A DNA stretch of 28,443 nucleotides from contig NVUS02000053.1 of the NCBI GenBank assembly GCA_002402005.2, positions 1 through 28,443 on the forward strand, in the 5' to 3' direction. The first letter of the stretch is position 1; each line of letters opens with the position of its first letter. Positions 1,611-15,849 of the stretch are shown here, piece after piece. The notes beneath the pieces are model-generated. The model saw only the letters and a program-made list of their open reading frames with translations. It was not told where the DNA came from and made no database searches. The DNA comes from OCS116 cluster bacterium. GTDB taxonomy: Bacteria; Pseudomonadota; Alphaproteobacteria; Rhizobiales; OSC116. The position numbers and the translations under genes were made by a program.

Positions 1611-1814
1611 GGTTTAATCATGCGAAATTTTGCCTGCAAAAGCCATAATAAAAAGGTTATAAACTATTTAACGCACAGAAACCCGCAAACAACTTAACTA
1701 TCCCAACCACATATGCTATTGAGCAATTACAGGCTCAATTGAATGAAAAGTCACACCAACAAAAATCATTATTCCGCCTGAATTTTAACCCCTAATCTTA
1801 GAGGGAGACATTAT

Positions 1815-3380
1815 ATGTCTGATACACCAAAAGAAACTGAAACTCCAGAAGTAGAAGCCCCAAAAGTGGAAGCCAATGAAGCTGAAGCTCCTGCTGTAGA
1901 AGCCAGTGCAGAAGCAGGCACTGAACCTACAGAGGAAGCAGCACCAGTAGAAACGAAAGCCGAACAAGCTCCAACTGAAGAAGTAAAGGCTGAAGAATCT
2001 CCTGCCGAAGAAGCTCCAAAAGAAGAAACCAAAACCGAAGACGCACCAGCAACCGAAGACGCACCAGCAGAAGAGGCTTCAACAGCCATCGATGCCAAAG
2101 CTCTATTCCCTAAATTCTTCTCACAATCCGTCAGCGATAGCGATTACGAAATCCGCAAAGCCATCGATAAAGAATATCGCCGCCAGTCAGAAGAAATTGA
2201 ACTGATCGCGTCAGAAAACATCGTTTCACGCGCTGTGATCGAGGCTCAAGGCTCTGTTCTCACCAACAAATACGCTGAAGGCTACCCCGGACGCCGCTAT
2301 TATGGTGGTTGCCAACATGTAGATGTGGTCGAAAATGTTGCCATCGAACGGGCTAAAAAACTATTCGGCGCAGCCTTTGTTAACGTACAACCGCATTCAG
2401 GTTCACAAGCCAATCAAGGCGCCATCATGGCGATGATTGAGCCCGGCGCTACAATTCTAGGCATGAGCTTAGATGCTGGCGGTCACCTAACTCATGGTGC
2501 CAAACCAAACCAAAGCGGCAAATGGTTCAATGCCATTCAATATGGCGTTAAAAAAGCCGACAACCTTATCGATTATGATGAAGTTGCCAAACTGGCCAAA
2601 AAACACAAACCAGCAGTTATCATTGCCGGCGGTTCCGCCATCCCACGCGAAATTGATTTTGCTAAATTCCGCGAAATCGCCGATTCATGTGGTGCAAAAC
2701 TTATGGTAGATATGGCACATTTCGCTGGCCTCGTGGCCGGTGGTCAGCATCCTAACCCAGTCGGCATTGCCGATGTGGTTACCACCACAACTCACAAAAC
2801 ACTACGTGGCCCACGTGGCGGTATGATTTTGACCAATGATGAAGATTTGGCCAAAAAAATCAACTCAGCCATCTTCCCCGGCATACAGGGCGGCCCGCTC
2901 ATGCATGTTATTGCTGCTAAAGCTGTGGCATTTGGCGAAGCGTTGCGTCCTGAGTTTAAACAATATACCCAAGCGGTCATCAACAATGCCCAAAAATTGG
3001 CAGCCACTTTGCAAGAAGGCGGCCTAGACATTGTCACTGGCGGCACCGATACACATGTATTGTTGGTCGATATGCGCCCCAAAAAGCTAACCGGCAAAGC
3101 TGCCGAAGAAGCCTTGGGTCGTGCCAATATCACCTGTAACAAAAATGCTGTTCCGTTCGATCCAGAAAAACCAACCATCACTTCTGGCATTCGTTTGGGC
3201 TCACCTGCGGCAACAACCCGCGGCTTTAGCGAAGCAGAATTCGAAACAATCGGTAAGCTTATTCTTGAAGTTCTCGATGGTTTGGTAGAGAATGGTGAAG
3301 AAGGAAATGGCAAAGTTGAGTCGCGCGTTAAACGTAAAGTGCGCGATCTATGTCGTCGCTTCCCAATTTACGAAGCTTAA
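1815..3380 (+). CDS. glyA: Serine hydroxymethyltransferase with a 90-aa acidic N-terminal extension
   Basis: Motifs [44 protein letters not shown]-lysine motif [34 protein letters not shown] at 1803-1807, 7 nt before ATG 1815. Confidence 0.98.
2033..2068 (+). repeat. Perfect 18-bp tandem duplication (AACCGAAGACGCACCAGC x2) encoding TEDAPA x2 in the GlyA extension
   Basis: Read directly from the sequence: 2033-2050 equals 2051-2068. Confidence 0.95.
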
Positions 3381-3899: not shown

Positions 3900-4084
3900 T
3901 ATATTGATTTAAAGGCTTAACGTTAAGCATGTTAAGCCAGAATATGGTGTAAGAGCTCAGATTTTAGCAGACTTAAAACTTAAAAATGTTATATTGCGGC
4001 CAAATTCGGCAATAGAAATCATATATAGATGGTTTTTGCCAACTTAAAATGGGTCAAACCCCATCGATGAATGGAAAATTATAA

Positions 4085-14763: not shown

Positions 14764-15849
14764 ATGGCGTTACCAGATTTCACAATGCGCCAGCTTTTAG
14801 AAGCTGGCATTCACTTTGGCCATCAAAAATCCCGCTGGAATCCTAAAATGGACCAGTATATTTTTGGCACACGCAACAAAATCCACATCATGGATCTTTC
14901 AAAAACCGTTCCTTTGCTGCATCAAGCATTGGTAGCTGTACGTGACGTTGTTGCTGGTGGTGGTCGTGTTCTTTTTGTTGGCACAAAACGCCAAGCATCA
15001 GACCCAATTAAAGCCGCTGCTCAAAGCTGTGCTCAATATTACATCAACCATCGTTGGTTGGGTGGCGCGTTAACGAACTGGAACACAGTTTCTAATTCAA
15101 TCAAACGCCTAAACGAGCTAAACAAAATTCTTGAAAGCGATGCCCACGGCCTCACTAAAAAAGAATTGCTTAAAATGACTCGCGAACAAAATAAACTTGA
15201 TCGCGCCATTGGTGGCATTAAAGATATGGGCGGCATTCCGAACCTTATCTTCATCATCGATACAAATAAAGAATCATTGGCAGTTGCCGAAGCTAGAAAA
15301 TTGGGCATTCCAGTGGTTGCGGTTTTGGATTCAAACTCAAACCCAGATGACATTGATTTCCCAATCCCAGGTAATGATGATGCGTCACGTGCCATCGAAC
15401 TTTATTGCGATCTAATCGCTCGTGCCGCTTTGGATGGCATTTCACAAGCTCATGGCGATGCTGGTTTCGATCTTGGCGAGGGCGCTGACCTTCCAGAAGA
15501 TATTGTAGCCGAAGTTGAAGCCGCTACAGATGCTGAAATTGAAGCACCTGTTGCTGCTGTTGAAGTCGCTCCAAAAGCCGAAGCTGCTCCTAAAGCTGAA
15601 GAAGCTCCAAAAGCTGAAGAAGCTCCAAAAGCTGAAGCTGCTGCATCTACTGGTGATGATGATCTGAAAGAACTTTCAGGCGTTGGCCCAGCTCTAGAGA
15701 AAAAATTGCACGCTGCTGGCGTAACAACTTTTGCTCAAATCGCTGCTTGGAACGATGCTGAAGTCGAAGAATTTGGCGAAAAGCTTTCTTTCAAAGGTCG
15801 TATCGAGCGCGAAGGCTGGATCGATCAAGCTAAAAAATTAGCAAAATAA
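14764..15849 (+). CDS. rpsB: 30S ribosomal protein S2 with C-terminal acidic linker and helix-hairpin-helix domain
   Basis: [27 protein letters not shown]...[10 protein letters not shown]...[10 protein letters not shown]...PIPGNDDA; extra C-terminal [17 protein letters not shown]...[13 protein letters not shown] domain. SD AGGAG at 14752-56. Confidence 0.98.
15568..15639 (+). repeat. Four 18-bp tandem repeats (GCTCCWAAAGCYGAAGMW) encoding [12 protein letters not shown] in the S2 linker
   Basis: Units at 15568, 15586, 15604 and 15622 read directly. Confidence 0.93.

What the first reader, a model, noticed from the sequence alone, without database searches (positions are those of the whole stretch)
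1815..2084. GlyA carries an obligatory 90-aa acidic intrinsically disordered N-terminal extension
Seen: the first 90 residues contain 26 E, 3 D, 6 K, 20 A and 11 P (net charge about -23) with no aromatic, Leu, Ile or Arg residues. A strong SD precedes ATG 1815, and there is no in-frame ATG/GTG/TTG near the normal SHMT start (FFSQSVSD region), so the extension must be translated. It contains a perfect 18-bp duplication, suggesting growth by slippage. Established: bacterial SHMTs begin within roughly 5-20 residues of this position. Inference: the segment resembles PED-rich linkers such as that of PopZ. It could act as a solubility or condensate tag, a spacer tethering SHMT to a one-carbon metabolon, or a proteolytic control element. 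I know of no described SHMT with this feature.
Basis: partly seen in the sequence, partly recalled or inferred. Interest (0 to 1): 0.68.

Follow-up and report, generated by a model that had tools for sequence, protein, structure and literature searches.

The report
Acidic floppy tail on bacterial SHMT
In a genus of uncultured deep-subsurface marine bacteria, the housekeeping enzyme serine hydroxymethyltransferase always begins with a 57-105-residue, strongly negative, structureless tail that has to be translated and keeps changing length by in-frame repeats; it is real and apparently undescribed for this enzyme, but its role is untested.

Summary
glyA (1815-3380, 521 aa) starts with 91 residues that hold 26 E, 3 D, 6 K, 20 A and 11 P in the first 90. 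The net charge is -23, with no aromatic, Leu, Ile or Arg residue.

The tail must be translated. The only in-frame ATG/GTG/TTG codons before the catalytic domain are ATG 1815, which has a strong SD, and GTG 1866.

All seven species of the genus carry such a tail, as do 7 of 7 metagenomic proteins of at least 85% identity. The genus consists of Hyphomicrobiales MAGs. Tails are 57-105 aa, 24-32% acidic and net -10 to -24. None of the listed SHMTs of 33 other families in the order has a long tail; one has about 28 aa. None of the 14 best candidates among 400 alphaproteobacterial genomes has one.

Four independently assembled runs bridge the junction, so this is not a chimera. The 18-bp repeat unit is polymorphic among those runs.

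The tail evolves by lineage-specific in-frame tandem repeats (dN/dS 0.4, against 0.02 in the core). AlphaFold gives it pLDDT about 30.

Two new points. Ile92 sits exactly where relatives have their start Met. The catalytic core is unusually basic, with pI about 8.3 against about 5.9.

Most likely this is a disordered polyanionic bristle that balances charge. Its function is inferred, not shown.

The scan has noted similar clade-specific disordered tails on other housekeeping enzymes, but not on SHMT.

The parts
1700..1814 (+). Genus-specific conserved 5' leader directly abutting the start codon. It contains a predicted hairpin (CAGGC...GCCUG enclosing UGAAUGA/UCAUUAU) and a short stem that pairs CCCU with the SD.
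   Evidence: Near-identical in all 7 species, and more conserved than the tail itself. Three pairs show double-sided changes. No Rfam match. An exact 33-nt core is found only in the 7 MAGs of this genus among the genome-contig collection.
1803..1807 (+). Shine-Dalgarno core GGGAG, 7 nt upstream of ATG 1815.
   Evidence: Sequence. AGGGAG or GGAGG is conserved before the ATG in all 7 species.
1815..2087 (+). Acidic, hydrophobic-free, predicted-disordered N-terminal tail of GlyA (residues 1-91).
   Evidence: Composition. pLDDT 29-38 with no secondary structure. Present in all genus members at 57-105 aa. Only this frame is stop-free in all 7 species. dN/dS is 0.40-0.42 in close pairs.
1845..1874 (+). 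15-bp x2 in-frame tandem repeat ([10 protein letters not shown]).
   Evidence: TRF, 86% matches.
2033..2069 (+). 18-bp x2.1 perfect in-frame tandem repeat (TEDAPA x2). Copy number is polymorphic in the source population.
   Evidence: TRF, 100% matches. The 18 bases at 2033 are absent from the contigs of runs X3 and X4 and present in X1 and X2.
2088..2090 (+). Ile92 codon (ATC) at the position of the ancestral start codon.
   Evidence: It lies 37 residues before ELIASEN and 9 before FF. This is the modal Met1 position of the closest tail-less SHMTs (49 of the 109). The codon is ATC, ATT or ATA across the genus, with no conserved SD before it.
2088..3380 (+). Canonical SHMT catalytic core (residues 92-521 plus stop), unusually basic.
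   Evidence: Pfam PF00464, 552.6 bits, profile 2-399/399. All solved SHMTs align from residue 92 or later. Core net charge is +2 and pI 8.3, against a mean of -7.4 and pI 5.9 in 109 homologues.
2796..2798 (+). Codon of Lys328, the PLP-binding lysine in the invariant [14 protein letters not shown] motif.
   Evidence: Invariant columns T323-G336 in alignment A1. Its role as the Schiff-base lysine is established knowledge of SHMT.
3312..3356 (+). C-terminal helix (residues 500-514) that gained about five K/R relative to relatives. It is part of the basic shift of the core.
   Evidence: Per-column charge comparison at K500, R504, R507, R510 and R514. Predicted helix at 499-514.

Best explanation
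glyA here encodes a normal, presumably active SHMT. It is fused to an obligatorily translated, intrinsically disordered, polyanionic N-terminal tail.

Origin (inferred): in the ancestor of this genus the original start codon became an Ile codon (ATG to ATH, now Ile92). Initiation moved about 270 nt upstream to a new SD+ATG placed directly behind a genus-specific conserved leader.

Evolution (shown): the tail has since evolved by in-frame tandem duplication and deletion of 15-42-bp units. Selection acts on composition, not on sequence: high acidity, no hydrophobic residues, and never fewer than about 57 residues.

Mode of action (inferred, not shown): a non-specific physico-chemical appendage, that is, an entropic bristle and charge balancer. 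The catalytic core of this clade is about 9 charges more basic than in relatives, and the tail turns it into a net-negative, soluble protein that should not stick to ribosomes or nucleic acids. The tail may also transiently cover cationic surface such as the folate/polyglutamate groove.
For: Real and translated:
- Exact composition, a single usable start and a strong SD.
- All 7 species of the genus keep the tail. In each, ELIASEN lies 94-142 residues from the start, against 31-45 in most of the other families of the order whose SHMT loci were listed. Six of the seven species have no ATG 31-45 residues before ELIASEN; G004 has none after position 94.
- Only the coding frame is stop-free in all 7 species.
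- Contigs of four runs bridge the tail/core junction at even depth.
- The tail's codon choice follows glyA's own bias and exceeds it: GAA 0.92, and no GCG, CCG or CCC.
- The conserved leader ends at this ATG.

Disordered: pLDDT about 30 and no secondary structure for residues 1-90.

Selection on composition: 14 variants are 57-105 aa, 24-32% acidic, net -10 to -24, with 0-2 hydrophobic residues. dN/dS is 0.40-0.42 against 0.02 in the core. Repeats are lineage-specific and in-frame.

No tail-less close relative: all proteins of at least 85% identity are 502-523 aa. The one exception is an annotation truncated at an ATT codon.

Lost ancestral start: Ile92 aligns with the modal Met1 of relatives.

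Charge coupling: core net charge is 0 to +3 in every tail-bearing SHMT, against -7.4 +/- 2.9 (range -13 to 0) in 109 homologues. The adjacent NrdR shows no such shift. Low-GC tail-less SHMTs are -9 and -4.

Rationale from the literature: positively charged proteins diffuse slowly in the bacterial cytoplasm, attributed to ribosome binding (PMC5726854, found; abstract and my own knowledge).
Against: - No protein-level or RNA-level data exist for this organism; no RNA run holds the locus.
- The charge argument rests on one clade, which is one evolutionary event.
- 3 of 36 tail-less SHMTs from other families also have a core net charge of 0 or more. One other family has a short Q/S/E-rich extension on an ordinarily acidic core. 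Neither feature therefore requires the other.
- With the tail the whole protein is about -21, more negative than typical SHMTs. Simple restoration of the usual net charge does not explain the tail's size.
- High dN/dS and large length variation are also what a tolerated passenger would show.
Confidence: 0.5

Rival explanations
1. Tolerated passenger (constructive neutral evolution). The start codon was lost, so translating a former leader became unavoidable. The segment has no function. Its composition only reflects a filter against harmful (hydrophobic, structured, basic) residues, and its length drifts by slippage.
For: Fast evolution, with dN/dS 0.4 in close pairs and about 1 between distant ones where the alignment is unreliable. 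Length ranges from 57 to 105 aa. An 18-bp indel is polymorphic in one population. No motif is conserved genus-wide beyond MS[DE][TN]. Ile92 sits at the old start position.
Against: The tail was kept in all 7 species and all 7 close metagenomic variants, across divergence at which synonymous sites are saturated (dS about 1). It never shrinks below 57 aa, and no proximal start has been regained, although one base change (ATH to ATG) would do it. The acidic fraction stays in a narrow band of 0.24-0.32. Codon bias is stronger than in the rest of the gene. It co-occurs with a gene-specific basic shift of the core.
Confidence: 0.25
2. Tethered polyanion that regulates the enzyme. The Glu-rich tail folds back electrostatically on the cationic surface around the folate site. 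There it mimics a folate polyglutamate tail or nucleic acid. It would tune activity or substrate preference with ionic strength or the polyglutamylation state.
For: The core gained about 9 positive charges, concentrated in the N-terminal helix next to the tail's attachment point and in the C-terminal helix. In eukaryotic SHMT1 the positively charged surround of the folate cleft binds polyglutamate tails and RNA by non-specific electrostatics, and the two compete (PMC6486632; bioRxiv 10.1101/2023.03.17.532973).
Against: I could not map the gained charges onto the folate site, because no coordinates were available. A dimeric bacterial SHMT was reported to be unaffected by RNA. The monomer AlphaFold model shows no docking of the tail. 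Tail charge varies more than two-fold among species.
Confidence: 0.1
3. Flexible tether carrying a short docking motif at its tip ([12 protein letters not shown]). The motif would recruit SHMT to a partner, a one-carbon metabolon, a condensate or a protease.
For: The first 12 residues are identical in the 4 closest species and in most metagenomic variants, while the middle of the tail varies.
Against: In the three more distant species the tip is MSDTNEKDAVE, MSDTTETNTPE or MSENNETNQSE, so only MS[DE][TN] is shared. The tip has no hydrophobic anchor residue. The neighbourhood (nrdR, nusB, thiL) holds no candidate partner gene. In the 72%-complete genome, my scan of open frames of at least 120-150 aa found no comparable long acidic tail on another ORF that looked like a metabolic enzyme. 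The other hits were not run through Pfam.
Confidence: 0.1
4. The tail is not part of the protein. Translation would start at a non-canonical internal codon, as the public annotation of one relative implies, or the segment would be an assembly artefact.
For: NCBI annotation of GCA_022968955.1 calls a 409-aa product starting at an ATT codon. Ile92 is an ATH codon at the old start position.
Against: The frame is open and anchored in all 7 species despite many indels, while the other two forward frames carry 1-17 stops. A strong conserved SD+ATG stands at the head of the tail. No conserved SD precedes Ile92, and that codon is ATA in two species. The ATT start lies at E. coli-equivalent residue about 15 and would remove conserved N-terminal residues (FF and the SVSD motif). 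Contigs from four runs span the junction.
Confidence: 0.03

Closest known systems
Canonical bacterial SHMT / GlyA (e.g. Burkholderia pseudomallei 3ECD, E. coli 1DFO)
   Same: Full-length PF00464 match. 5e-190 to 3ECD over residues 100-519. Invariant PLP-lysine motif and ELIASEN motif. Same glyA-nrdR gene order as in other Hyphomicrobiales.
   Different: 91 extra N-terminal residues that no solved SHMT chain covers. The start Met is replaced by Ile. The core pI is about 8.3 instead of about 5.9.
Acidic disordered 'entropic bristle' or solubility tails on folded proteins (general class; reviewed in PMC5424795, found)
   Same: High net negative charge, no hydrophobic residues, predicted disorder, and conservation of composition rather than sequence.
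   Different: This is a natural, clade-fixed tail on a central metabolic enzyme. No effect on solubility or diffusion has been measured here.
PopZ PED-rich linker of Caulobacter
   Same: Pro/Glu/Asp/Ala-rich, acidic, disordered composition (my own knowledge of PopZ).
   Different: No sequence relation: the phmmer search of the tail found no PopZ. There are no flanking PopZ helices. The tail is attached to an enzyme, not to a scaffold.
Ala/Pro/charged inter-domain linkers, such as the one in this genome's own ribosomal protein S2 C-terminal extension (14764-15846)
   Same: A/P/E/K-rich low-complexity spacer of similar composition in the same window.
   Different: That linker joins two folded domains (S2 and a helix-hairpin-helix). 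The GlyA tail ends free at the N-terminus with no second domain.
Eukaryotic SHMT N-terminal extensions (organelle targeting peptides; N-terminal arm of tetrameric SHMT1)
   Same: Extra residues before the conserved SHMT core (papers listed).
   Different: Targeting peptides are basic and amphipathic. This tail has no Arg and no hydrophobic residue and sits in a bacterium.

Membership tests
Serine hydroxymethyltransferase (PF00464) | Full-length match to the family profile above the curated cut-off | tested here: met
   552.6 bits against a cut-off of 27, profile 2-399/399, residues 107-483.
Serine hydroxymethyltransferase (PF00464) | PLP-binding lysine in the T-T-T-T-H-K motif, and conserved N-terminal ELIASEN | tested here: met
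   T323-K328 and E129-N135 are invariant in alignment A1.
Serine hydroxymethyltransferase (PF00464) | Serine/glycine interconversion activity | not testable with these tools
   It is the only strong SHMT match in the 72%-complete genome. Activity is inferred.
Intrinsically disordered acidic tail (entropic-bristle type) | High net charge with very low hydrophobicity | tested here: met
   Net -23 over 90 aa with no hydrophobic or aromatic residues. The same holds in 14 variants.
Intrinsically disordered acidic tail (entropic-bristle type) | No predicted stable structure | tested here: met
   pLDDT 29-38 and no helix or strand for residues 1-90. This is a prediction only.
Intrinsically disordered acidic tail (entropic-bristle type) | Composition conserved while sequence and length diverge | tested here: met
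Intrinsically disordered acidic tail (entropic-bristle type) | Measured effect on solubility, aggregation or diffusion | not testable with these tools
   Needs recombinant protein.
PopZ-type PED linker | Homology to PopZ, or flanking PopZ N-terminal and C-terminal helices | tested here: not met
   No PopZ among the hits of the tail in 1.84e9 representatives. The tail is followed directly by the SHMT core.
Signal or targeting peptide | Basic n-region plus hydrophobic h-region, or an amphipathic basic helix | tested here: not met
   No Arg, 6 Lys against 29 acidic residues, and no L/I/F/W/Y/M after Met1.
Known structured RNA upstream of glyA (Rfam families, e.g. ZTP) | Match to an Rfam covariance model | tested here: not met
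   No match at E <= 1 in 1400-2300.

The most novel reading that the evidence does not exclude
The tail is a covalently tethered polyanion that mimics a folate polyglutamate tail or RNA. It would reversibly occupy the cationic surface that this clade's SHMT core has acquired, so that ionic strength, Mg2+ or the polyglutamylation state of folates switches the enzyme. This would be a built-in bacterial counterpart of the riboregulation and polyglutamate competition described for human SHMT1.
Probability: 0.08. Interest if true: 0.75.

Novelty: new variant of a known kind. Interest (0 to 1): 0.5.

Why it matters
SHMT is one of the best-studied PLP enzymes. None of the 87 PDB SHMT sequences matched covers such a tail (the 60 listed all align from residue 92 onward), and I found no paper describing one.

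A tail fixed across a whole genus, evolving by repeats and paired with a basic shift of the catalytic core, gives a natural test case. It asks how bacteria use, or merely tolerate, disordered polyanionic appendages on abundant cytosolic enzymes, and how a lost start codon can create new coding sequence from a leader.

There is also a practical point. At least one public annotation truncates this gene at an ATT codon, so such tails are easily missed.

If the tail only improves solubility or is neutral, the finding is a modest curiosity.

Tried and rejected
- Assembly chimera: rejected. Contigs from four runs span 1784-2556 at even depth.
- RNA evidence: none available.
- Structured RNA or riboswitch explanation for the region: no Rfam match. 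The tail's mRNA folds no better or worse than shuffles (z = -0.93).
- Homologous donor for the tail: none. There were six compositional 'extensin-like' hits in unrelated proteins. A word-based search of residues 1-100 found only the genus's own proteins.
- Proteome-wide habit: rejected. Only 5 (strict criteria) to 12 (relaxed criteria) ORFs in the genome carry comparable acidic segments. Those read in full are a C-terminal processing peptidase-like protein, a LysM-like protein, an OmpA/MotB-like protein and S2. The further ORFs found only by the relaxed scan were not identified.
- GC-driven lysine enrichment as the cause of the basic core: not supported. Two low-GC tail-less SHMTs are -9 and -4, and NrdR shows no shift. 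The control is small.
- Other alphaproteobacterial SHMTs with long tails: 14 candidates with early alignment starts or long open frames all have an ordinary ATG 32-48 residues before ELIASEN. Only 150 of the 416 matches in that search were listed, so the survey is incomplete.
- Mapping the gained charges onto the folate site: not possible, because no model coordinates were available to me.

Full report
**What is there**

The ORF 1815-3380 (+) encodes 521 residues.
- Pfam places a full-length SHMT domain at residues 107-483, at 552.6 bits.
- Every solved SHMT aligns only from residue 92 or later.
- The in-frame stop upstream is at 1779.
- The only ATG/GTG/TTG codons before the conserved ELIASEN motif are ATG 1815 and GTG 1866.
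- GGGAG lies 7 nt before ATG 1815.
- The duplication is a perfect 18-bp unit in 2.1 copies at 2033-2069.

**Is it an artefact?**

No. The locus is held by four DNA runs of one subsurface-metagenome study. Their separately assembled contigs cross the tail/core junction: X1 1814-2153, X2 2029-2556, X3 1300-2700 and X4 1784-2518. Depth is even throughout.

In X3 and X4 the 18 bases at 2033 are missing, while X1 and X2 have them. The repeat unit is therefore an in-frame copy-number polymorphism in nature. No RNA run holds the locus, so transcription and translation are not directly shown.

**Conservation**

The window's genome belongs to a genus of uncultured Hyphomicrobiales MAGs (isolates named NORP94, NORP194, DT_98, DT_99, tPB_Alph1, BB6 and others).
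- All seven other species of the genus have an SHMT whose ELIASEN motif lies 94-142 residues from the start. In most of the other families of the order whose loci were listed, the distance is 31-45 residues.
- Seven metagenomic proteins of at least 85% identity are 502-523 aa and carry the tail as well.
- The one apparent exception, a 409-aa NCBI product, is an annotation that starts at an ATT codon. The tail is open and in frame directly upstream of it.
- Across 14 variants the tail is 57-105 aa, 24-32% acidic and net -10 to -24, with 0-2 hydrophobic residues.
- Only the coding frame lacks stops in all seven species. The other two forward frames have 1-17 stops.

Outside the genus I found very little.
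- One other family of the order has a short, obligatory extension of about 28 residues, rich in Q, S and E.
- Of 400 alphaproteobacterial genomes sampled evenly, the 14 best candidates for an extension all turned out to have a normal ATG.
- That survey covers only the 150 listed matches.

**How it evolves**

In the close pairs, dN/dS is 0.40-0.42 in the tail and 0.02 in the core. At greater distances the tail can no longer be aligned reliably.

Each lineage has its own tandem arrays, and every period is a multiple of three:
- 15 bp x 7.5 copies (a TSSD/TSSE-like unit);
- 18 bp x 5.9 copies (an EKVEAT-like unit);
- 42 bp x 2.1-2.5 copies;
- 30 bp x 2.7 copies.

Codon choice in the tail follows the bias of glyA and exceeds it: GAA 0.92, CCA 0.73, and no GCG, CCG or CCC. 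The tail has no relative outside the genus. A search of 1.84 billion representatives gave six compositional hits in unrelated proteins.

**Origin**

Ile92 lies 37 residues before ELIASEN and 9 before the FF motif. This is exactly the modal position of Met1 in the closest tail-less SHMTs: 49 of the 109, with a further 30 at 36 residues.

Across the genus this codon is ATC, ATT or ATA, and no conserved SD precedes it. The simplest reading is that the ancestral ATG was lost by one base change and that initiation now occurs upstream. This is an inference.

The new start sits at the end of a leader of about 115 nt (1700-1814). The leader is nearly identical in all seven species and is more conserved than the tail. 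It has a predicted hairpin supported by a few compensatory changes. It has no Rfam match. The core of its sequence occurs only in this genus among one genome each of about 185,000 species.

**Structure**

AlphaFold2 was run with a 27-sequence alignment. It gives pLDDT 29-38 and no secondary structure for residues 1-90, and a folded core. The core's own confidence is mediocre because the alignment is shallow.

**A new observation bearing on function**

I measured net charge of the catalytic core from the FF motif to the end.
- In every tail-bearing SHMT it is 0 to +3, with pI 8.0-8.5.
- In the 109 closest tail-less homologues it is -7.4 +/- 2.9 (range -13 to 0), with mean pI 5.9.

The shift of about +9 is spread over many positions. 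It is concentrated in two places:
- the N-terminal helix next to the tail's attachment point (K100, R114, K115, K119, R122);
- the C-terminal helix (K500, R504, R507, R510, R514).

It also includes changes at positions that are almost invariant elsewhere: Asp to Ala at 212 and Glu to Lys at 263.

Controls:
- Two low-GC tail-less SHMTs are -9 and -4.
- The neighbouring NrdR shows no shift.
- However, 3 of 36 tail-less SHMTs from other families also reach 0 or above.
- All tail-bearing proteins are one clade.

The association is therefore suggestive, not proven.

**Mechanism**

I commit to this reading: a disordered polyanionic appendage acting through bulk physical properties. It would keep an abundant, unusually basic enzyme net-negative and soluble, and stop it sticking to ribosomes and nucleic acids. 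Positively charged proteins are reported to diffuse slowly in bacterial cytoplasm because they bind ribosomes (PMC5726854).

- Shown: presence, obligatory reading frame, conservation, mode of evolution and charge figures.
- Inferred: disorder (a prediction), the start-codon history and the function.

Rivals are a tolerated passenger, a tethered pseudo-substrate or regulator, a tether with a docking tip, and non-translation.
- The regulator idea draws on eukaryotic SHMT1, where polyglutamate tails and RNA compete on the cationic surround of the folate cleft (PMC6486632; bioRxiv 10.1101/2023.03.17.532973).
- A dimeric bacterial SHMT was reported to be insensitive to RNA.

**Comparison and novelty**

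The enzyme is a member of the SHMT family. The tail is not a member of any sequence family. It works like the general class of acidic disordered tails, and it resembles PopZ's linker in composition only.

Papers that mention SHMT N-terminal extensions concern eukaryotic organelle targeting.

Earlier notes of this scan report similar clade-specific disordered tails on other housekeeping enzymes, such as ATP synthase beta and HisRS. The kind is therefore known, and this is a new variant on a new host enzyme. I score interest at 0.5: real, clean and testable, but without a demonstrated function.

Noticed in passing
window 1700-1814: A conserved glyA leader of about 115 nt, nearly identical in all 7 species of the genus. 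It has a predicted hairpin (three pairs with double-sided changes) and a short stem pairing CCCU with the SD. It has no Rfam match, and its core sequence is found only in this genus. It is a candidate regulatory RNA or operator for glyA.
   Followed up: partly
window 14764-15846: Ribosomal protein S2 (rpsB) is 361 aa. An S2 domain (residues 11-225) is followed by an acidic A/P/E/K-rich linker and a C-terminal helix-hairpin-helix domain (HHH_5, 25.6 bits, just under the cut-off).
   Followed up: partly
L031 4001-5230 (GCA_022968955.1, JALJPN010000001.1): The public annotation of the orthologous glyA in a relative calls a 409-aa product starting at an ATT codon. This omits the in-frame 105-residue tail and about 20 conserved core residues, so it is a likely start-site mis-annotation.
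   Followed up: yes
L007 (G005), tail of glyA; same as P0009: One species' acidic tail contains a strongly basic patch of about 18 residues (K/R/P-rich, KPARPKRTRKPRAKKK-like). No other species has it.
   Followed up: no
L010 (G025, another family of the order): An independent, shorter obligatory N-terminal extension on SHMT, about 28 residues and rich in Q, S and E. It has its own SD+ATG, and the only later start candidate is a TTG 8 residues before ELIASEN.
   Followed up: partly
window 3900-4084 versus L031 5741-9138: In the window nrdR is followed directly by nusB. The relative G003 keeps ribD, ribE, ribBA and ribH between them. The loss of the riboflavin block is therefore specific to this species or lineage within the genus.
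   Followed up: partly
window residues 212 and 263 of GlyA (nt 2448-2450, 2601-2603): Two positions that are almost invariant in 109 relatives are changed in the tail-bearing clade. Asp (108 of 109) becomes Ala, and Glu (106 of 109) becomes Lys.
   Followed up: no
L031 740-1480: In the relative G003 a Bpt-type aminoacyl-tRNA protein transferase gene (ATE_N/ATE_C, N-end-rule pathway) lies two genes upstream of glyA, on the other strand. I draw no link to the tail.
   Followed up: no
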